A stretch of DNA of 64,000 nt from Escherichia coli (GTDB lineage: Bacteria > Pseudomonadota > Gammaproteobacteria > Enterobacterales > Enterobacteriaceae), in assembly GCF_024223415.1 (NCBI RefSeq), contig NZ_CP100500.1. One strand, 5' to 3'. Every line of letters begins with the position of its first letter. The first letter of the stretch is position 1. This document shows positions 2,232 to 12,355 of this stretch, one piece after another. The translations under genes and the position numbers were made by a program. The notes beneath the pieces are model-generated. The model searched no databases and had not been told where the DNA came from. It was given only the letters and a program-made list of their open reading frames with translations.

Positions 2232-2561
2232 CTATGCCACGACCTGTTCAAAATCTGCCGTTATGGTTACCCACAACGCCCCCACGCTTGCCGACCATTT
2301 ACGACAAACCACCCTGATCGGCTTCCAGTCATAAGGTGGCGTCCACTGAAATGCGCGGACGCCACCGTGCCGTTCCAGAAAGGCTTTTAAAGATGGGTGT
2401 TCACATTTACGAACACGTATCGTCACGCTGTAAATCGACAACTGGTTATTCAGTCCCGCCGCACGACGCTGTTCATAACCATCGCCCAGCTTCACTGTCA
2501 CCACTTTCGGCTCTGATACCACATTCATATCCGGGCGCACTTTCCAGTGAAACGTCTCCAT
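2232..2561 (-). CDS. M: Minor tail protein M
   Basis: 109 aa ORF at the lambda M position between L and H. Confidence 0.8.
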   Translation of the reverse strand: METFHWKVRPDMNVVSEPKVVTVKLGDGYEQRRAAGLNNQLSIYSVTIRVRKCEHPSLKAFLERHGGVRAFQWTPPYDWKPIRVVCRKWSASVGALWVTITADFEQVVA

Positions 2562-5500
2562 TACCGATATGCTCCACTTAACCGACCACCATCACGGGCC
2601 TGCTGTTGCATAAAGTCCGCTGCCGCTTTTTTCCCAAGGTCATAAACCACCTTCAGGGCAGCCGGACCTATCTGCCCGTTCGTGCCATCGTTATTGATCT
2701 CGATGTTGTACTGCGGGGCAAACATCGCCATACCTGAACCACCAATATCCGCCACAACCCCCAGCTTACCGTCAGCACCACGACGCAGTGGCAGAATGGC
2801 TTCAGGTCCAGCTTCCCCCATCACACCCGCGCCTTTTGCAAAAGCAAAAAACGTCGGACGGTTAACCACCGTGCCACTGTAACGACTCAAATCAGCAGAC
2901 TGATAAATCCCCCCATTGGCATTCAGGGAAAGGCTGCTGAGATCAAATCCCAGTACACTGCCAATCCCTTTTATCGATTTCATCATGGTTGCCTGCGCCA
3001 GGATTTTCGCCATATCTGACAGCACCGAAGAGGTGAAGGATTTGAAGTTGAGTTTGCCGGTAGTGACAAAAGTTGCCAGGCCATTTCCCATGTTGCTGAA
3101 GGCTGATGAGAACACCTGTTCTGCTGTTCCTGCCGTATTGTCTGCATCCACGGTAAAATCCTGAAATGCACGCAGGACTCCGTTTTTCCAGTTACCCTGC
3201 ACAACTTCAAGCTGTTGCCAGTAACGGCGATTCTCATTCAGTTGTCGGTTCAGGCTCTCCGTCAGCGCCTGCTCGGCCTTTCTGTAGTCATCCGTGTTAT
3301 ATGTCCCTTTCTGCTCACTATCCCGCCTCAACTGCTCCAGCTGTTGCTGGTATTTCTGGCGAAGACTCAGTTGTACCTGATATCGCTGCCGCTGCTGATC
3401 ACCCATACCCACCGTGGCGATATCCAGGTCATGTTGCTGACGCTGAGCGCGCTCTTCTTCAGCCAGTTGACTGGTCAGCTGAATTGTTTTTTTCTTCAGA
3501 TCGTTGAGTGCCGTTTGTTTCTGAAGCTCCTGCTGTTTTACATCCAGCAGCGTCAGTGCCTGAATCAGTTCATCTTTACGGGCCAGCACACTCTTTTCAT
3601 CTGCCGTCAGTTTTTTCCCGTCCAGGTCGCTGATGCGCTGCTGCAGAGCCAGAAGCTGTTTATGCGCTTCTGTCATCCTGTCAGTGGCAATGCCTGCTGA
3701 CTGTCTGGCAGCAGCAATCTGCCCTTCCACCTGTGCCTGTTGCTGGCTGTACTGCAGCAATAACCGGGTGGCCTCATCATTACGGGTTTCGCGTGTTTTT
3801 TTCTTACCGGATGCCAGGGCTTTCTCGTAACGTTCATTTTCACGTTGTATCGCCGCATCCCTGACAGCCTGATCGGCGTACTGCATGGCATTAATACGCG
3901 CAATTTCACGCTGATGTCGTGCTGCTTCCGTTTCATTCATCCGGTTCAGTGCAGCATTTTCAGCATTACGGCGTTTCTGTTGCTCCTGATAATTCCGCTC
4001 TGCCTGCTCTTTTGCATCCTGCAAATCCTTCTGGCGTTTTTTCTCCTGAAGCTCGTTAAGACGCTGCTGATCGTATTCAACCTGAGAAGATGATGCCGTC
4101 CAGGGGAGTCTTTTCGCCCGCGATACTTTCTCCTGCAAAGTGGCAATCTGCGCATCCAGCGAATCTTCACGACCAATATTCATGGCCGCATCCCAGAACT
4201 GCTTCCACCAGTCAGACAAGGTTTGCAGCGTACTACCCAGCGCATTGAGGTTATTATCAATATCCGCAGTACGCCGACCGGTTTCCTCTGCCAGTGCAGA
4301 CATGGCTATCCGTGCCGCATCACTGGAGCGCCCCTGCTCTCCAAGGACGCGTATCTGCTCAAGCTGAGTGGCAGTAAGAAAATGCAGCTCATTGTCCAGA
4401 GCCTTCGCGGCATTTACAGGATCATCCTTCAGCCGCTTAAACTGATTTATGGTATCGCTGATCGACTGGCCAACCGATCGCTCCATCTGTGCGGCAGCTC
4501 TCGCCACCATACCGATATCGTTTCCACGAAATGCACCACTCCCCACCACCTGAGCCAGCGCACCGGCTGCAGCATGTTGCGTGATACCATTCCCGGAAAT
4601 AGCACGACTGAGCGTCCACAGCTGCCCGGCAGTGACTCCGGCATAATGCCCCGTCAGCGACAGCTGGCGGTTAAATTCTTCCCCCTCCTTCTGACCGTCA
4701 TACCAGGCTTTACCCAGACCATAGACGGCCGCGGTAATACCGCCAATAACCCCGCCCAGCATCATGCCTTTCGGTGACATCAGTGTGTCTATCCATCCGG
4801 CACGGTTAGCCAGCGTTATCCCGGATCCCCTCAGCGCCCCTAAATTGCCGCGGGCCAGTTCACCTATCAGAACGCCTATCTCCTGGCGGGCCGCTGCACT
4901 TTTCAGACCCAGCGAATGCGTGGCTTTTCCTGCCCGCTCCATTTTGCGGATATACACTTCTGCAGCACTGCTTACCCCCAGCTGGGCAGCCCTGGCACGA
5001 AGCAACTCAGAAGAAGAAAGATTCTGGCGGGTTGCCTGCTCTTTAAGCTGACGGATAAACGCCACTTTCTGTCGGGTAGCCTCTGCCTCAGCCTGCGTAA
5101 GAACACGGGTTTTCGCCGTAACCTCAGAAATCAGCGCCAGATAATCCTGCTGACCAATCCCGCCACTGTTTCTGGCCTGTCGGATCTGCTGCTGAATACG
5201 CTGTAACTCCTGCAACCCCGCACTGGCCTGTTTCACACTGTCAATCTGACGATAAAACGCGGCAGCCGCTTTATCCTGAGCCTCCGCCAGAGCCATGGCC
5301 TGCGCCTGTTCCTCGCGCATTTTCTGGCTCAGCGCCTCCATGCGCTGGCGGGTTTTCTCCACCTCGCGGGCCATGCGTTCATGAGCCTGTGCGTTCTTCT
5401 CCACCGTCTGCGCATGGACGGATGCGGCTGTTGCAGCCGAAGAAGCCGCCTGCGTTGTCTGCCGGGCGGCCTGAGTCTGACGCTCCATAAAACGCTGCAT

Positions 5501-5656
5501 ACGGGCAGAAGACCGTTCTGCATCGCTGGCTGCACCATTCAGAAGGTTTTTGATACGGGGAATTTCATTTTTAAATTCTGCCGCATCAATCCCCAAATCA
5601 ATGACCAGGTTGGCTATCTGGTCCATAACGCACACCTCCGGAAATACCTTCCCCAA
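2561..5656 (-). CDS. H: Tail tape measure protein H
   Basis: 1031 aa, long coiled-coil/Q- and A-rich central region, Gly-rich hydrophobic C-terminal segment; position between G/T and M. Confidence 0.85.
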   Translation of the reverse strand: MGKVFPEVCVMDQIANLVIDLGIDAAEFKNEIPRIKNLLNGAASDAERSSARMQRFMERQTQAARQTTQAASSAATAASVHAQTVEKNAQAHERMAREVEKTRQRMEALSQKMREEQAQAMALAEAQDKAAAAFYRQIDSVKQASAGLQELQRIQQQIRQARNSGGIGQQDYLALISEVTAKTRVLTQAEAEATRQKVAFIRQLKEQATRQNLSSSELLRARAAQLGVSSAAEVYIRKMERAGKATHSLGLKSAAARQEIGVLIGELARGNLGALRGSGITLANRAGWIDTLMSPKGMMLGGVIGGITAAVYGLGKAWYDGQKEGEEFNRQLSLTGHYAGVTAGQLWTLSRAISGNGITQHAAAGALAQVVGSGAFRGNDIGMVARAAAQMERSVGQSISDTINQFKRLKDDPVNAAKALDNELHFLTATQLEQIRVLGEQGRSSDAARIAMSALAEETGRRTADIDNNLNALGSTLQTLSDWWKQFWDAAMNIGREDSLDAQIATLQEKVSRAKRLPWTASSSQVEYDQQRLNELQEKKRQKDLQDAKEQAERNYQEQQKRRNAENAALNRMNETEAARHQREIARINAMQYADQAVRDAAIQRENERYEKALASGKKKTRETRNDEATRLLLQYSQQQAQVEGQIAAARQSAGIATDRMTEAHKQLLALQQRISDLDGKKLTADEKSVLARKDELIQALTLLDVKQQELQKQTALNDLKKKTIQLTSQLAEEERAQRQQHDLDIATVGMGDQQRQRYQVQLSLRQKYQQQLEQLRRDSEQKGTYNTDDYRKAEQALTESLNRQLNENRRYWQQLEVVQGNWKNGVLRAFQDFTVDADNTAGTAEQVFSSAFSNMGNGLATFVTTGKLNFKSFTSSVLSDMAKILAQATMMKSIKGIGSVLGFDLSSLSLNANGGIYQSADLSRYSGTVVNRPTFFAFAKGAGVMGEAGPEAILPLRRGADGKLGVVADIGGSGMAMFAPQYNIEINNDGTNGQIGPAALKVVYDLGKKAAADFMQQQARDGGRLSGAYR

Positions 5657-5927
5657 GATGCATCAGTTCTTCGTCCGTTCGCTCCGGTATCCCGTTCTCT
5701 TCCGGTAAAAGGCTGAAATCAGCCACCGCAGCATCACTGCTGCCGGACACCATTCTCACGATCAATGCCTTCAGCGAGGCAAACTGCGCATCCATCCACA
5801 CATCACTGAAGCTCTGCATCCGGAAATAATCGCCCCACTCACCAAGCTCAGTGGCCGACATTTCCGACAGCATCCGCCGCCAGTCTGCCCGCCTGAACTC
5901 CCGGGCAAGCCGCATGACAAACTGCAT
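5598..5927 (-). CDS. T: Tail assembly chaperone T-frame segment (probable G-T fusion by -1 frameshift)
   Basis: 109 aa ORF in -1 frame relative to G, overlapping start of H; lambda G/GT arrangement. Confidence 0.6.
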   Translation of the reverse strand: MQFVMRLAREFRRADWRRMLSEMSATELGEWGDYFRMQSFSDVWMDAQFASLKALIVRMVSGSSDAAVADFSLLPEENGIPERTDEELMHLGEGISGGVRYGPDSQPGH

Positions 5928-5935
5928 TTCCCGCG

Positions 5936-6364
5936 TCAGGACTTTTCCGGCGTCAGCACCTCATGCTCCAAATCCCCGACATTCTCAATGGCTCCCATAC
6001 CGCTCAGCGACAGAACCATCTCCGCCCCCGCTCCCAGGGCATCATACGACCATGTTGTAATAACGGATGCGCAAAGCGTCTCAACATCCTGAGACTGTTC
6101 CGCATTCCACAGTGAGCGGGAAACCAGCCAGGCATTGATATCCATCCCCATCCGTAGAAAAGCAATCTGTCGTTCAGCCTCCGGCAGTTCTCCCTCTTCG
6201 GCATCAAACTTTGCCGTTCGCTGCTGAACAAACGCCAGATATTCAATTCTCTGCAGCCCGGACAGCTCACTGAGCACCACGGACTGCTTTTCATAATTAA
6301 ACGTGCCCTGTTTCAGAAACATCATGTTCTCCACCTGCAAAAAAGCCCCGGATAATCGGGGCAA
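5936..6364 (-). CDS. G: Tail assembly chaperone G
   Basis: 142 aa acidic protein directly downstream of V; ends ...HEVLTPEKS just before T frame. Confidence 0.7.
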   Translation of the reverse strand: MPRLSGAFLQVENMMFLKQGTFNYEKQSVVLSELSGLQRIEYLAFVQQRTAKFDAEEGELPEAERQIAFLRMGMDINAWLVSRSLWNAEQSQDVETLCASVITTWSYDALGAGAEMVLSLSGMGAIENVGDLEHEVLTPEKS

Positions 6365-6382: not shown

Positions 6383-7126
6383 TTAACCTGCGGCGCTGAC
6401 GGCCACCGTAGCCACTGCCACAAAATCGCCGTCAGAAGTCATGCCCACAATGCTGACACTGCCCTGCTTCACGCCTTTCACCGTGACCACAAGCCCGTTC
6501 AGGGTCACCGTGGCAGTCTGTGGATCTGTCGAATGCACACTGATCGCTTTGTCACTGGCTCCGTCAGGTTTTACTGTAAAGGTCAGCGTGGTGGTTGCTC
6601 CCACTTTTACACTGGCAGATGCCGGTGCCACCGTCAGCCCGGTAACGCCCACGATTTCAGTGCCTTCTTCTGCCAGATACGGACGCCCCACACCGCTGAT
6701 TTTCACTGTGCGGGTCATCACGTCTTTTGAGGCAATGGTTTTACCCAGTGAACTCAGCCAGCCACGGAAAACATCAACAGTACCGTTGGGATATTTGATA
6801 CGAAACGCGCAGACTTCACCGGAGTCGAACAACTGAACCAGTTTTTTCTGCCCGCTGTCACCCGGACGCCAGGCCAGCGTCGCCGAAGTATCACCGACGG
6901 ATTTCTGCCCCTGGGTTGTCGTTTTCCAGTCTGCATCTTCATCATCGAGATAAGTGTCATCTTCTGCATCAGCGGTCATTTCGCCAGGCTGCAGATCCTT
7001 CACCATCGCAAGACGCAGCCAGTCAGTGTCCGATAAAGGGTTCGCAAACGCATCGCCCTTGCCGGTGTACATCCAGAACGTCGTTCCCGCACCTTTCGTT
7101 TTTGCCAGTGGATTTGGTGTGGTCAT
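6383..7126 (-). CDS. V: Major tail protein V (with C-terminal Ig-like domain)
   Basis: From MTTPNPLAKTKGAGTTFWMYTGKGDAFANPLSD...; lambda gpV-like; C-terminal Big_2-like segment; ORF extends upstream to 7201. Confidence 0.85.
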   Translation of the reverse strand: MTTPNPLAKTKGAGTTFWMYTGKGDAFANPLSDTDWLRLAMVKDLQPGEMTADAEDDTYLDDEDADWKTTTQGQKSVGDTSATLAWRPGDSGQKKLVQLFDSGEVCAFRIKYPNGTVDVFRGWLSSLGKTIASKDVMTRTVKISGVGRPYLAEEGTEIVGVTGLTVAPASASVKVGATTTLTFTVKPDGASDKAISVHSTDPQTATVTLNGLVVTVKGVKQGSVSIVGMTSDGDFVAVATVAVSAAG

Positions 7127-8802: not shown

Positions 8803-10761
8803 TTACGCCGTACATTTCACCAGACCGCGGTGATCAACTGGCGCGACACCGGCGTCAATACGCACTTTCGTTGTCACGCCATCCACACTGAAGCCCTCCA
8901 TCTGATCAATATATGGCGTATCCACACCGTTGAGATAAGCCACTTCAATCGTATCGGAGCCTTTTGACGCAGCCAGGTAGAAGGTGGTCTGGCTGTTATC
9001 ATCAAGACGAGGCTCTGCAATAACGGTCGCAAAATCTTTCACCGGGTTAATAATACCGGCGTTAATGTCAGCCCCCTTGACACTTGAGGAGCGAATGACC
9101 TGGTTAGCAACAGACTCCATCGCCGTCGGTACCAGTACGAACGCAGGACGAATATTCAGATGACGCTCCCCCTCTTTCTGAACACGCATCAACTGGCGGG
9201 CTTTATCCAGCGATGCCACGTCCATTGCAGCGTCCTCCAGTACGTTTGCATGTTTCGCTTTATCGAACAGACTTACATTATCTGTGGAGATTTTCGGGTT
9301 AGACGTCAGAATGGCATAAACCAGATCGGCAATAGTGGATTTCGCCGCACGGCCCAGCTTCATCGGGACATCGGTCAGCATATTCAGATCATCATTGATA
9401 ATGGCCTGACGGGTGATACTGAACAGCTCGCCATAGGTCGCCAGTGCAATAGTGGCCTGTTTATCTCCGGTGGTGACGTATTTATATTCCGCCCCTTCAC
9501 GCACCTGACGCAGAGCACTGAAGCCCCCTATACCCACGCGATGGGCAATTTTAAAATCAGACAACTGACCTTTCCGCGTCCACTGTTCATAGGTTTCAGG
9601 GGCATCTTCCCAGCCCTGCAGAATGGCTTTGTTCGCAACATCCAGCAGAATATTACCGAAGTCAGACGTACTGTGTGTGAACGCCGCACCGACCATCTGC
9701 ATCGGGTTATAACCGGAAACCCCAATACCCCGTTCAGTCAGTGACATACGGGCATATTCACGCAGGGTCATCCCGTTGTAGACATTATCACGTTCGGTTT
9801 TTTCAAATCCGGCACGCGCCATCAGCGCCTGGCGGATCCCGTCCCCCACAAAATTACCGTTACCGGCATAAATATGAGCCGGGGTATTTTTATTGGATGG
9901 CGTGGACTCGCGCCCCATCTCGTTCAACAGCTTTTCGCGGGCCTGCTCCAGCGAACATTCAGGATCGGCAAGACACTGAGCCTGCAGCGTCTGATAACGC
10001 CCGCCAAACATGGCAAACAGATCATTAATACCGTTTACACGCGCTTTTTGCTCTGCCAGTACCTGCGCACGGATACTGTTTTCATCCACCACGGGTGCTG
10101 CTGCCTGCACTGGCGTCCGGGAGGCTGCAGGTTCATTATCCTGTACGCGTGGAGCACTGTTGCGTGGCGGAGTAATCATGTTTCGAATGGATTCCGGCAT
10201 CTTTTTAAATTCCTCTGTACGTTTTGACTGAATACATGCCATTGCCTTAACGGCTGGCGTCACCTGATCAGCAAATCCATGTGCCAGACATTCGGCACCG
10301 GACATCCAGGTCTCATCCGCCAGCATGGCAGCAATTTCATCGGTGGTTTTCCCGGTTTTCTGTGCATAAGCGGGTAACAGAACCGCCTCAACCTTATCGA
10401 GCAGGTCGGCATAGGTGCGCATGTCCTCCGCATCACCGCCCGTAAAGCCAAATGGTTTATGAATCATCATGAAGGTGTTTTCCGGCATAATGACCGGTTT
10501 TCCCACCATCGCAATGACCGACGCCATTGACGCCGCCACACCGTCGACATAAACGGTAATGGACGCACCATGTGTTTTCAGCGCATTAAAAATGGCGATG
10601 CCTTCAAAGACATCGCCACCCGGTGAATTGATATGGAGATTAATGTGGGTGATATCGCCCAGTGCATTCAGATCACTGATAAACTGCTTCGCTGTAACAC
10701 CCCAGAAACCAATCTCGTCATAAATATAAATATCCGCGTCACTCTGGTGACCAGCCTGCAT
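8803..10761 (-). CDS. Head maturation protease (ClpP/S14-like) fused to major capsid protein
   Basis: N-terminal region IYIYDEIGFWGVTAKQF...HINSPGGDVFEGIAIFNALK...MASVIAMVGKPV is ClpP-like; about 450 aa C-terminal domain; lies between portal and head-tail genes; start set at MQAGHQSD (ORF extends to 11022). Confidence 0.7.
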   Translation of the reverse strand: MQAGHQSDADIYIYDEIGFWGVTAKQFISDLNALGDITHINLHINSPGGDVFEGIAIFNALKTHGASITVYVDGVAASMASVIAMVGKPVIMPENTFMMIHKPFGFTGGDAEDMRTYADLLDKVEAVLLPAYAQKTGKTTDEIAAMLADETWMSGAECLAHGFADQVTPAVKAMACIQSKRTEEFKKMPESIRNMITPPRNSAPRVQDNEPAASRTPVQAAAPVVDENSIRAQVLAEQKARVNGINDLFAMFGGRYQTLQAQCLADPECSLEQAREKLLNEMGRESTPSNKNTPAHIYAGNGNFVGDGIRQALMARAGFEKTERDNVYNGMTLREYARMSLTERGIGVSGYNPMQMVGAAFTHSTSDFGNILLDVANKAILQGWEDAPETYEQWTRKGQLSDFKIAHRVGIGGFSALRQVREGAEYKYVTTGDKQATIALATYGELFSITRQAIINDDLNMLTDVPMKLGRAAKSTIADLVYAILTSNPKISTDNVSLFDKAKHANVLEDAAMDVASLDKARQLMRVQKEGERHLNIRPAFVLVPTAMESVANQVIRSSSVKGADINAGIINPVKDFATVIAEPRLDDNSQTTFYLAASKGSDTIEVAYLNGVDTPYIDQMEGFSVDGVTTKVRIDAGVAPVDHRGLVKCTA

Positions 10762-10774
10762 CCTGAACCAGGAA

Positions 10775-12355
10775 TTATTCTTCGGACTGGTCGTCGGTGT
10801 GCTGCGGCTCCTGTCGTTTCGTTGCGGCACTGCTGCCTCCTTTATCACTGGCCGGATCGGTATCAAATACCAGATCCAGCTTGCGGTTTTCATCAATTTC
10901 GGCCTTGCGCCGACGTTTGACATCATCCGGATTACGACCACCTGCACGTACCCAGTCTGATTCTGTCGCCGCTCCACCACGAATCTGGATTTTCCAGGCC
11001 TCAGCCTCCTTAACAGGGTCAATCCACGGCATCACCGGTCCGGAATACACCGCGGTATACAGTGAAGAACGGTCAAGATCGCGGGGTAGCCTGATAACAC
11101 CGGATGCCACAGCCTGTTTCAGCCAGGCACGGTACATCGGGCGGGTGACGGCACCAATAAACCAGTCCTGCAGGATCAGGTAGCCATCAGTGGATTCAAC
11201 CAGCTCCTGACGCTGGGCGCTGTAAGTGCCGTTATAGTTGCGCGCTGTACTGGAAAAACTCAGACGACTGCCAGCCGCCACTGCACGCAACTGACCATTA
11301 CGAAAAGTTTCAAGATTAGGATTGGGGCGATCCGACTTCACCATTCCGATTTCTTCGCCGGGTTTCAGATCGTCGTAAATAATGCCTGGCTGAATGGTAA
11401 GCTCGCGTTCCTTATCCTTGCTGCCATTACCATCCGGTTCATAGCTCTGCCCGTCGCCTTTGCGGATGTACATCCCCAGAGCAGCGGCGATCCTTGCTGC
11501 AGTCAGCTCATAATCTTCATAATCTTTCAGGGCACTGAGGCGGATCAGCACACCGGACAACAAAGACGTCCCGCGCATCTGGTGCAGACGGCGAACAAAT
11601 TTAAGATGCAGCATTCGCTCTGCATCCACTTCTTTGGTTTCCATCTGCCGTCCGGATACGGGACGGCTTTTATACACCAGATATTTTTCGGGACGCCCCC
11701 AGTCATCAACAAACACGCCCTGATTCAGCCTGTTGCTCTCATCACTGGTCATGGGAATAAAGTCCGGCTCGAGCGCCTCCAGCCAGAAATGAACACCGGC
11801 AGAAGGCGTCAGGCTGTTTATGCGCCCGGAAACCATCTGGGCAAACACCTCACCATCGCGCAGCCAGGTACGCAGCATCAGACGTTCCAGTATCGGACGG
11901 GTAAACTGCCCGGTGACTTCCGGGCTGACAGACCATTCACTCCATCGGGTGCGAATCTCCGCTGCCAGATCACGGGCAATGGCCCCATTGCGTAATACCG
12001 GATGTGGCTCGACAATAATCCCGTTTTTCCCCACCACCCGTTCTTCCCGCTTGTCAAATACACCAATAACCAGATCGTGGTTGTTATCAAGGTAACGGGC
12101 CTGCTCACGTAACGACACGGCCCCGTACTGGCTTAGCTGGTCGGCAGTTCGGTTCTCCCGTCGGGCTTTGTGTGTCCGCGTCGTTTTTACGGCTTCATAA
12201 GCCTGGATCACCGCACGGGAACGCAGCCTTGCCGCTTTCCATCCAGGTGAAAAAACGCCAATCACATCATCAAGAATTGCCATCAGAACCTCGCCAGCCG
12301 GTACCCGGGATGCCCCCGTCGTCGTGTAATCAGAGCCGCAAGGCGGCGCTCCCAC
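10775..12355 (-). CDS. Portal protein (lambda gpB-like family); true start possibly 12283
   Basis: 526 aa ORF immediately downstream of terminase/W; portal-like size and position. Confidence 0.75.
   Translation of the reverse strand: MGAPPCGSDYTTTGASRVPAGEVLMAILDDVIGVFSPGWKAARLRSRAVIQAYEAVKTTRTHKARRENRTADQLSQYGAVSLREQARYLDNNHDLVIGVFDKREERVVGKNGIIVEPHPVLRNGAIARDLAAEIRTRWSEWSVSPEVTGQFTRPILERLMLRTWLRDGEVFAQMVSGRINSLTPSAGVHFWLEALEPDFIPMTSDESNRLNQGVFVDDWGRPEKYLVYKSRPVSGRQMETKEVDAERMLHLKFVRRLHQMRGTSLLSGVLIRLSALKDYEDYELTAARIAAALGMYIRKGDGQSYEPDGNGSKDKERELTIQPGIIYDDLKPGEEIGMVKSDRPNPNLETFRNGQLRAVAAGSRLSFSSTARNYNGTYSAQRQELVESTDGYLILQDWFIGAVTRPMYRAWLKQAVASGVIRLPRDLDRSSLYTAVYSGPVMPWIDPVKEAEAWKIQIRGGAATESDWVRAGGRNPDDVKRRRKAEIDENRKLDLVFDTDPASDKGGSSAATKRQEPQHTDDQSEE

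What the first reader, a model, noticed from the sequence alone, without database searches (positions are those of the whole stretch)
5920..5960. G/T tail chaperone junction lacks the canonical lambda slippery heptamer
The T frame is -1 relative to G and overlaps as in lambda, but the sequence at the end of G reads CCGGAAAAGTCCTGA rather than the lambda GGGAAAG heptamer I recall. The frameshift site may be shifted or use a non-canonical motif.
Basis: partly seen in the sequence, partly recalled or inferred. Interest (0 to 1): 0.2.

Follow-up and report, generated by a model that had tools for sequence, protein, structure and literature searches.

The report
Non-canonical G/T tail-chaperone frameshift site
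A lambda-like prophage's two tail-assembly chaperone genes are joined by a ribosomal frameshift site, G_GAA_AAG, that differs by one base from lambda's; the variant is strictly conserved and very common in E. coli, so this is an ordinary system with a mildly interesting signal.

Summary
On the minus strand, G (PF06894; 6325..5936) ends CCG GAA AAG TCC TGA. The T frame (PF06223) is -1 relative to G and is open only from 5960, so the overlap is 25 nt. No in-frame X_XXY_YYZ heptamer occurs in the overlap or anywhere in G.

The site is not shifted. G_GAA_AAG (5948..5942) sits exactly where lambda has G_GGA_AAG, one G-to-A change away.

- It is invariant in 58/58 exact-context IMG/VR matches.
- It is kept in 16 diverged lineages, including Gifsy-2, mEp043 and a Klebsiella phage, although the G tail around it is hypervariable.
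- The module occurs in 1845 of 5426 complete E. coli genomes, where G and T are annotated as separate genes.

Best explanation: a programmed -1 frameshift makes a G-T fusion (…TPEK|VLTREM…). tRNA-Lys slips AAG to AAA, and tRNA-Glu re-pairs GAA to GGA with a G·U middle pair. An SD-like GAGGTG 10 nt upstream may help; this is weakly supported. No conserved downstream structure was found.

The same heptamer has served as a "less slippery" control in ribosome biochemistry.

Verdict: a variant of a known kind, of modest interest.

The parts
5936..6325 (-). Gene G, tail assembly chaperone (129 aa from ATG 6325; 128 aa from ATG 6322), stop TGA 5938..5936
   Evidence: ORF and translation. Pfam PF06894 Phage_TAC_2, E = 2.2e-39. 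Annotated as gpG in Ayreon, mEp460 and RefSeq E. coli.
5942..5948 (-). Proposed -1 shift site G_GAA_AAG. Zero frame reads GAA (Glu) AAG (Lys); -1 frame reads GGA AAA.
   Evidence: Only slippery sequence in the overlap. Homologous to lambda G_GGA_AAG. Invariant in 57/57 close relatives, in 62 of 80 T relatives down to 49% identity, in 16 lineages, and in 58/58 exact-context matches with none carrying G, C or T at position 3.
5936..5960 (-). G/T overlap of 25 nt. This is the only stretch in which a -1 shift can join G to T.
   Evidence: Frame analysis.
5961..5963 (-). TGA in the -1 frame that closes the T frame upstream and so bounds the shift window.
5598..5942 (-). T part of the predicted G-T fusion, read in the -1 frame from GTC 5942..5940 (VLTREMQFVMRLAREF…) to stop 5600..5598. 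Predicted fusion is 242 aa.
   Evidence: Pfam PF06223 Phage_tail_T, E = 5e-15.
5925..5927 (-). ATG that public annotation uses as an independent start of T. Probably not a real start.
   Evidence: Used by mEp460 and PGAP. It has no in-frame ATG counterpart in Gifsy-2, mEp043, Kp4865-4 or the L104 lineage.
5957..5962 (-). Shine-Dalgarno-like GAGGTG. Its GAGG core ends 10 nt before the heptamer. Candidate upstream stimulator (inferred).
   Evidence: Duplex with the 16S 3' end is -9.2 kcal/mol, in the top 9% of windows in its own gene. The mean anti-SD affinity across 16 lineages peaks 8-10 nt upstream of the heptamer, and GAGG lies at exactly N10 in 4 of 16 lineages. The same 10-nt spacing is present in the dnaX-mimic mRNA of PMC6924986.
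2561..5626 (-). Tape measure gene (H homologue), directly downstream. Its ATG 5626..5624 overlaps the end of T.
   Evidence: Annotation in Ayreon, mEp460 and E. coli.
6383..7126 (-). Major tail protein gene (V homologue), directly upstream of G.
   Evidence: Annotation in Ayreon and mEp460.
6345..6362 (-). Terminator-like hairpin GCCCCGATTATCCGGGGC followed by TTTTTT, between V and G. Context only, not part of the shift signal.
   Evidence: Annotated as a terminator in Ayreon and mEp460.

Best explanation
This is the lambda-type G/GT programmed -1 ribosomal frameshift of a mEp460/cdtI-like lambdoid prophage, using the heptamer G_GAA_AAG (5948..5942, minus strand) instead of lambda's G_GGA_AAG.

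Most ribosomes read …CCG GAA AAG TCC TGA and release G. A minority slip back one base while tRNA-Glu and tRNA-Lys occupy GAA and AAG. The single E. coli tRNA-Lys (UUU) re-pairs perfectly from AAG to AAA. tRNA-Glu (UUC) re-pairs from GAA to GGA, keeping pairs at positions 1 and 3 and forming a G·U pair in the middle. Translation then continues in the T frame to give a 242-aa fusion, …EVLTPEK-VLTREMQFVMRLAREF…. By analogy with lambda, this fusion links the tape measure protein to the major tail protein.

Shown here:
- the gene identities, the frame relation and the 25-nt shift window;
- the absence of a canonical heptamer;
- the positional homology with lambda's site;
- strict nucleotide conservation of GGAAAAG.

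Inferred:
- that shifting happens at this heptamer;
- that both tRNAs slip together rather than tRNA-Lys alone;
- that the efficiency is a few per cent or less;
- that the SD-like GAGGTG 10 nt upstream helps (about one chance in three).
For: - **Family and arrangement.** G matches PF06894 and the -1 ORF matches PF06223, and they lie between the major tail and tape measure genes.
- **Shift window.** The -1 frame is open for only 25 nt before the G stop. That stretch contains G_GAA_AAG and no X_XXY_YYZ.
- **Homologous position in relatives.** Lambda, phage 21 and Stx2a phages have G_GGA_AAG. VT1-Sakai has A_AAA_AAG. Gifsy-2, mEp043 and Klebsiella phage Kp4865-4 have G_GAA_AAG. In every case the next -1-frame codon is Val or Ala, followed by the conserved T start.
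- **Conservation.** 57/57 close relatives keep the site. So do 62 of 80 T relatives down to 49% identity. So do 16 lineages that share under 80% identity over 72 nt, whose G C-terminal tails are otherwise hypervariable. All 58 exact-context matches have A at position 3.
- **Position 1.** This is the synonymous third base of the preceding CCG, GCG or CTG codon. It is G in all of these lineages, as P-site re-pairing requires.
- **Viable phages.** Ayreon, mEp460, phi458, cdtI, Tritos and the PhiR series carry the site. The module is in 1845 of 5426 complete E. coli genomes.
- **No conserved own start for T.** The in-frame ATG at 5927 is absent in other lineages.
- **Known tRNA behaviour.** A_AAG is the most shift-prone tetramer in E. 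coli, and tRNA-Lys(UUU) is notably shifty (Sharma 2014, PMC4066793).
- **Precedent for GAA-to-GGA re-pairing.** It has been proposed, through a G·U pair, for the GGGGGAA sites of actinophage tail chaperones, and a 'twofour' motif class has been proposed (PRFect, PMC10274946).
- **Earlier recognition.** The Gifsy-2 homologue, with the identical site, is annotated as part of a G+G' frameshift hybrid protein.
Against: - **No experimental evidence.** Nothing tested here or in the searchable literature shows a shift at this heptamer.
- **Weak heptamer in vitro.** In a reconstituted E. coli system, G GAA AAG gave mainly 0-frame product. It was used as the 'less slippery' comparison to G GGA AAG because of the second-position mismatch (Peng 2019, PMC6924986).
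- **Tetramer needs help.** A_AAG without a stimulator was barely above background, about 0.15%. It reached 5.6% only with the IS3 pseudoknot.
- **No downstream structure found.** Single-sequence fold z-scores were -1.2 and -0.5. RNAalifold gave -10.9 kcal/mol with no covariation support. There was no Rfam hit.
- **Motif not avoided elsewhere.** In-phase G_GAA_AAG also occurs in several other long ORFs of the window, so it is not intrinsically very slippery.
- **SD-like element not universal.** The mEp043 and L139 lineages lack it. The contrast with lambda-type sites rests on only 16 versus 3 lineages (one-sided p = 0.02).
Confidence: 0.75

Rival explanations
1. Single-tRNA slippage. Only tRNA-Lys slips on A_AAG, in the A site or in the P site before UCC is decoded. 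The preceding G_GA plays no pairing role. The protein product is identical (…PEK-VLT…).
For: - Some T relatives end G with the Lys codon directly followed by a stop, with no possible P-site re-pairing: GCA_AAA_TAG in 14 loci, A_GAA_AAG_TAA in 3, GAA_AAA_TAG in 1.
- A_AAG is the best Z_ZZN tetramer in E. coli.
Against: - Wherever a stop does not immediately follow the Lys codon, the preceding bases are invariably G_GA, G_GG or A_AA. This includes the synonymous position-1 G in all 16 lineages.
- That pattern is unexplained if only A_AAG matters.
- The tetramer alone is near background without a strong stimulator, and none was found.
Confidence: 0.18
2. T is translated on its own from ATG 5927, as public records annotate it. 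No frameshift is needed.
For: An in-frame ATG exists at 5927..5925. mEp460, cdtI-type records and PGAP annotate T from it.
Against: - The ATG is not conserved. Gifsy-2, mEp043, Kp4865-4 and the L104 lineage have no in-frame ATG there.
- The upstream sequence CGCGGGAAATG offers only GGGA, two bases from the ATG.
- In every lineage the T frame stays open upstream just far enough to include the heptamer.
- In lambda the T domain acts only as part of gpGT (PMC5009743).
Confidence: 0.05
3. The site is a decayed lambda heptamer in a defective prophage, so no functional G-T fusion is made. Alternatively, the fusion arises by transcriptional slippage on the A run.
For: The site is one substitution away from GGGAAAG. 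The heptamer is weak in vitro.
Against: - The same base is fixed in plaque-forming or inducible phages, in 16 diverged lineages and in a third of complete E. coli genomes. None of 58 exact-context matches reverts to G.
- Four A's are far below the runs of more than 7 A or 8 T linked to transcriptional realignment (PMC3711429).
Confidence: 0.02

Closest known systems
Bacteriophage lambda G/GT programmed -1 frameshift (G_GGA_AAG; Levin, Hendrix and Casjens 1993; Xu, Hendrix and Duda 2004, 2013, 2014, as cited in PMC5009743)
   Same: - Gene order V-G-T-H and the same Pfam families (PF06894, PF06223).
- T is in the -1 frame.
- The shift site is at the homologous codon pair.
- The A-site slip is AAG to AAA by tRNA-Lys(UUU).
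- The junction is Lys followed by Val.

   Different: - Heptamer position 3 is A, not G. The P-site codon is therefore GAA (Glu), whose re-pairing to GGA has a G·U middle pair.
- The overlap is 25 nt versus 64 nt.
- The G stop is one codon after the site versus five.
- An SD-like GAGGTG lies 10 nt upstream here. The lambda-type sites examined have none.
Gifsy-2 STM1039 / STM1041.1n (Salmonella prophage)
   Same: Closest relative outside the clade, with G 55% identical. It has the identical CCGGAAAAGTCCTGA junction. It is annotated as part of a G+G' frameshift hybrid protein.
   Different: The annotation names no shift site, and no experiment is cited. The upstream tail sequence differs, although GAGG at N10 is kept.
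E. coli dnaX -1 frameshift (A_AAA_AAG, with an SD-like sequence 10 nt upstream and a downstream hairpin)
   Same: The A-site slip is A_AAG. An SD-like element lies 10 nt upstream of the heptamer.
   Different: The P-site codon here is not AAA. No downstream hairpin was detected. Here the shift extends the protein rather than truncating it.
Z_ZZN tetramer sites (A_AAG) and the PRFect 'twofour' and GGGGGAA motifs of actinophage tail chaperones
   Same: The slip of a single shifty tRNA-Lys is the dominant element. GAA-to-GGA re-pairing through a G·U pair has been proposed for other tail chaperone sites.
   Different: Those motifs were either tested with a strong pseudoknot or only inferred from annotation. 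In GGGGGAA the GAA codon is in the A site, whereas here it is in the P site.

Membership tests
Lambda-type G/GT tail assembly chaperone frameshift | Two overlapping ORFs lying between the major tail gene and the tape measure gene | tested here: met
   V at 6383..7126, G at 5936..6325, T frame at 5598..5960, H at 2561..5626, all on the minus strand.
Lambda-type G/GT tail assembly chaperone frameshift | Upstream ORF homologous to gpG and downstream ORF homologous to gpT | tested here: met
   PF06894 at E = 2.2e-39 and PF06223 at E = 5.1e-15.
Lambda-type G/GT tail assembly chaperone frameshift | Downstream ORF in the -1 frame, open across the end of G, with no conserved start of its own | tested here: met
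   The -1 frame is open from 5960. ATG 5927 is not conserved in other lineages.
Lambda-type G/GT tail assembly chaperone frameshift | Canonical X_XXY_YYZ slippery heptamer in the overlap (lambda: G_GGA_AAG) | tested here: not met
   None occurs in the overlap or anywhere in G. G_GAA_AAG is present instead.
Lambda-type G/GT tail assembly chaperone frameshift | Shift site at the homologous codon pair, with conserved junction sequence | tested here: met
   …EK|VLTREMQF… here against …GK|VFDGELSF… in lambda.
Lambda-type G/GT tail assembly chaperone frameshift | G-T fusion made at a low, fixed ratio to G and required for tail assembly | not testable with these tools
   Needs protein detection and genetics. 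The lambda values (about 4%, or 30:1) come from PMC3296357 and PMC5009743.
dnaX-type stimulated -1 frameshift | SD-like sequence 10-14 nt upstream of the heptamer | tested here: inconclusive
   GAGGTG lies at 5962..5957, with the GAGG core at N10 and a duplex energy of -9.2 kcal/mol. Enrichment across lineages is modest and not universal.
dnaX-type stimulated -1 frameshift | Downstream stem-loop or pseudoknot 5-9 nt after the heptamer | tested here: not met
   Fold z-scores were -1.2 and -0.5. The consensus fold had no covariation support. There was no Rfam hit.
Z_ZZN tetramer (A_AAG) single-tRNA shift sites | In-phase A_AAG decoded by tRNA-Lys(UUU) | tested here: met
   Zero-frame AAG at 5944..5942 is preceded by A at 5945.

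The most novel reading that the evidence does not exclude
A heptamer treated in ribosome biochemistry as essentially non-slippery, because of its second-position P-site mismatch, would be a naturally selected programmed frameshift signal used by one of the commonest prophage tail modules of E. coli.

It would be tuned by context, such as an SD-like element 10 nt upstream or something not yet seen, to give a G:GT ratio different from lambda's.

Both slip-site tRNAs, Glu-UUC and Lys-UUU, carry the thiolated U34 modification (PMC3296357). Tail assembly of these phages could therefore be more sensitive to host tRNA thiolation than lambda's.
Probability: 0.25. Interest if true: 0.45.

Novelty: new variant of a known kind. 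Interest (0 to 1): 0.3.

Why it matters
**Annotation.** Searches restricted to X_XXY_YYZ miss this site; Sharma 2014, for example, screened only such motifs. So do the public annotations checked here. PGAP and most phage records call T as a free-standing gene from a non-conserved ATG. The module is in about a third of complete E. coli genomes. No protein with the predicted TPEK-VLT junction turned up in a 5.8-billion-sequence database.

**Mechanism.** The site offers a natural, strongly conserved test case for two questions. How much P-site mismatch can a bacterial -1 site tolerate? Can an upstream SD-like element compensate for it?

**Caveat.** The biology of the G/GT frameshift itself is already well understood, so the gain is incremental.

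Tried and rejected
- **Canonical heptamer.** An in-frame search over all of G and an any-frame search over the last 45 nt found nothing.
- **Downstream stimulatory structure.** Two single-sequence folds were not better than shuffles. RNAalifold on 8 diverged G_GAA_AAG loci gave a weak consensus with a positive covariation term. Rfam at E ≤ 1 gave no hit.
- **Literature for GGAAAAG, 'G GAA AAG' or GAAAAG as a phage shift site**. This returned only Peng 2019, where it is the poorly slippery control. The supplements of Antonov 2013 held nothing relevant.
- **Xu, Hendrix and Duda 2004.** This is the paper most likely to list this site, and it is not held in the library. Prior mention there cannot be excluded.
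- **Protein database search for an annotated fusion**. It returned only four singleton in-frame G-T fusions made by deletions, not slippage annotation.
- **Independent T start, decayed site and transcriptional slippage.** All were rejected for the reasons given under the rival explanations.
- **SD-like stimulator.** It was kept only as a possibility. The statistics are weak because only 3 independent lambda-type lineages were available, and because acidic G tails are purine-rich anyway.

Full report
**What is there**

The region is the tail-assembly part of a lambdoid prophage or phage of the mEp460 / cdtI / Ayreon / phi458 group. It is 96-99.5% identical to 17 phage records over 1 kb, and about 80% of the first 25 kb is shared with the PhiR40_1-type phages. 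All genes are on the minus strand, in this order:

| Gene | Coordinates (minus strand) | Source |
|---|---|---|
| V, major tail protein | 7126..6383 | |
| Terminator-like hairpin | 6362..6345 | |
| G | 6325..5936 | |
| T frame | 5960..5598 | |
| H, tape measure | 5626..2561 | |

G matches Pfam PF06894, the lambda gpG tail assembly chaperone (E = 2e-39). The downstream frame matches PF06223, minor tail protein T (E = 5e-15).

**Checking the observation**

- In the G frame this is CCG GAA AAG TCC TGA.
- The T frame is -1 relative to G. It is closed by a TGA at 5963..5961, so G and T overlap by only 25 nt, 5960..5936.
- Lambda (NC_001416) does carry GCG GGA AAG, five codons before the G stop, in a 64-nt overlap.

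**Is the site shifted or non-canonical?**

It is non-canonical, not shifted. The relatives line up as follows:

| Phage | Sequence at the homologous codon pair |
|---|---|
| Lambda, phage 21, Stx2a phage | GCG GGA AAG |
| VT1-Sakai | TCA AAA AAG |
| Gifsy-2 | CCG GAA AAG |
| mEp043, Klebsiella phage Kp4865-4 | GCG GAA AAG |

After a -1 shift, each continues with Val or Ala and then the conserved start of T. Here that is K|VLTREMQFVMRLAREF; in lambda it is K|VFDGELSFALKLAREM. The window's heptamer G_GAA_AAG (5948..5942) is therefore lambda's heptamer with one G-to-A change at position 3.

**Conservation**

- All 57 close relatives in IMG/VR that could be scored keep CCGGAAAAGTC, although the sequence just upstream differs between sub-clades.
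- Eighty T relatives down to 49% identity were located by protein alignment rather than by motif. Of these, 62 have GGAAAAG. The other 18 end G with a Lys codon directly followed by a stop.
- Sixteen lineages sharing under 80% identity over 72 nt keep GGAAAAG, although the C-terminal tail of G around it is hypervariable.
- Heptamer position 1 is the synonymous third base of the preceding codon (CCG, GCG or CTG). It is G in all 16 lineages.
- An exact-context scan that left position 3 free found 58 matches, all with A.
- In the lambda-type set, 75 of 75 scorable loci have GGGAAAG. The two heptamers are each fixed in their own lineages.
- The module is present in 1845 of 5426 complete E. coli genomes.
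- It is also present in phages propagated on laboratory hosts. The site therefore supports working tails.

**Mechanism**

The best-supported reading is a programmed -1 frameshift at G_GAA_AAG that makes a 242-aa G-T fusion.

- *A-site half.* This is the same as in lambda. The single E. coli tRNA-Lys(UUU) moves from AAG to AAA. A_AAG is the most shift-prone tetramer in E. coli (Sharma 2014, PMC4066793).
- *P-site half.* This differs. tRNA-Glu(UUC) would move from GAA to GGA, keeping pairs at codon positions 1 and 3 with a G·U pair in the middle.
- *Support for P-site re-pairing.* The invariant G at position 1 and the invariant GA argue that this re-pairing matters.
- *The exceptions fit.* The relatives that lack any possible P-site re-pairing (GCA_AAA_TAG, A_GAA_AAG_TAA, GAA_AAA_TAG) all have a stop codon immediately after the Lys codon. 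This looks like a different, stop-assisted single-tRNA grammar.
- *Precedent.* Re-pairing of GAA to GGA through a G·U pair has been proposed for the GGGGGAA sites of actinophage tail chaperones, along with a 'twofour' motif class (PRFect, PMC10274946).

**Reasons for caution**

- Peng et al. 2019 (PMC6924986) used exactly G GAA AAG as the 'less slippery' comparison to G GGA AAG. They saw mainly 0-frame product at all EF-G concentrations.
- Sharma et al. found the A_AAG tetramer near background (about 0.15%) without a stimulator and at 5.6% with the IS3 pseudoknot.
- In-phase G_GAA_AAG also occurs in several other long ORFs of this window, so it is not avoided in ordinary genes.
- Either the required fusion level is lower than lambda's roughly 4% (PMC3296357), or the context helps.

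**Search for stimulators**

*Downstream.* Nothing convincing was found. Fold z-scores were -1.2 and -0.5. A consensus fold of eight diverged loci had no covariation support. There was no Rfam hit.

*Upstream.* The window has GAGGTG at 5962..5957, with its GAGG core 10 nt before the heptamer.
- Its duplex energy with the 16S 3' end is -9.2 kcal/mol, in the top 9% of windows within its own gene.
- The 10-nt spacing is the same as in the dnaX-mimic mRNA printed in PMC6924986.
- Across the 16 lineages, mean anti-SD affinity over the 80 nt upstream is strongest 8-10 nt from the heptamer. GAGG sits at exactly N10 in 4 lineages, and at no other spacing more than once.
- G_GAA_AAG lineages have stronger upstream SD-like sequences than lambda-type ones. 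This compares 16 lineages with 3 (one-sided p = 0.02).
- Two G_GAA_AAG lineages have no such element.

I treat this as a possible stimulator, at about one chance in three.

**Rivals**

- *tRNA-Lys slipping alone.* This gives the same protein. It is the main alternative and differs only in the role of the first three bases.
- *Independent initiation of T at ATG 5927.* This is what mEp460 and PGAP annotate. It is unlikely because that ATG is missing in other lineages, while the -1 overlap that includes the heptamer is always kept.
- *A decayed site or transcriptional slippage on four A's.* Conservation argues against the first. The long runs needed for realignment argue against the second (PMC3711429).

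**Comparison with what is known, and novelty**

By gene content, order, frame relation and site position, this is a member of the lambda G/GT family. The one defining feature it fails is the canonical X_XXY_YYZ heptamer. The frameshift in the Gifsy-2 homologue, which has the identical junction, was already inferred by its annotators. The existence of a shift is therefore not new.

Three things seem not to be documented in the searchable literature:
- the identity of the heptamer;
- its strict conservation across deep lineages;
- its coincidence with a sequence used as a poorly slippery control.

The key paper, Xu et al. 2004, could not be read, so prior mention there cannot be excluded. I file this as a new variant of a known kind. 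Interest is modest at 0.3.

**Practical note**

gpG and gpGT are not in mature lambda virions (PMC5009743). It also needs a protease other than trypsin, which would cut at the junction Lys.

Noticed in passing
window 6345..6362 (-): A terminator-like hairpin, GCCCCGATTATCCGGGGC followed by TTTTTT, lies between the major tail gene V and G. It is annotated as a terminator in Ayreon and mEp460. It could lower transcription of G, T and H relative to V.
   Followed up: partly
L114, L116-L119, L123-L125, L129, L137, L143, L147, L151 (about position 695-705 in each): In these more distant T relatives, G ends with a Lys codon directly followed by a stop: GCA_AAA_TAG, A_GAA_AAG_TAA or GAA_AAA_TAG. No P-site re-pairing is possible. 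They look like a separate, stop-assisted single-tRNA -1 shift grammar within the same protein family.
   Followed up: partly
window 5936..5941 (-), and the same position in L011, L036, L066, L071, L104, L108, L110, L113, L139, L140, L145: In 12 of 16 G_GAA_AAG lineages the G stop lies exactly one codon after the heptamer. All three stop codons are seen, and rare Leu codons (CTA, TTA) appear in the T frame. This suggests selection for the stop at this position. Lambda-type loci have it five codons later. I have no explanation.
   Followed up: no
P0001, P0002, P0003 (E. coli), P0019 (Salmonella): Four singleton database proteins of 212-233 aa carry both G and T domains in one frame, through deletions around the junction. 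They are either natural in-frame G-T fusion mutants or assembly errors.
   Followed up: no
window about 5707..5724 (-), equivalent to L002 2277..2294: The mEp460 record annotates a rho-independent terminator inside T (GGCTGATTTCAGCC followed by TTTT). The scan tool did not report it, because the loop is too short for its rule.
   Followed up: no
whole window: GGAAAAG occurs 19 times on both strands, against 9.7 ± 3.2 in shuffles. About six of these are in the G_GAA_AAG phase of other long ORFs. This probably reflects codon usage (GAA, AAG). It shows the motif is not avoided in ordinary genes.
   Followed up: partly
window 8803..11022 (-): A 739-aa ORF appears to fuse a ClpP-like prohead protease or scaffold region with the major capsid protein. 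Ayreon annotates a 'ClpP protease-like protein/scaffold protein' here.
   Followed up: no
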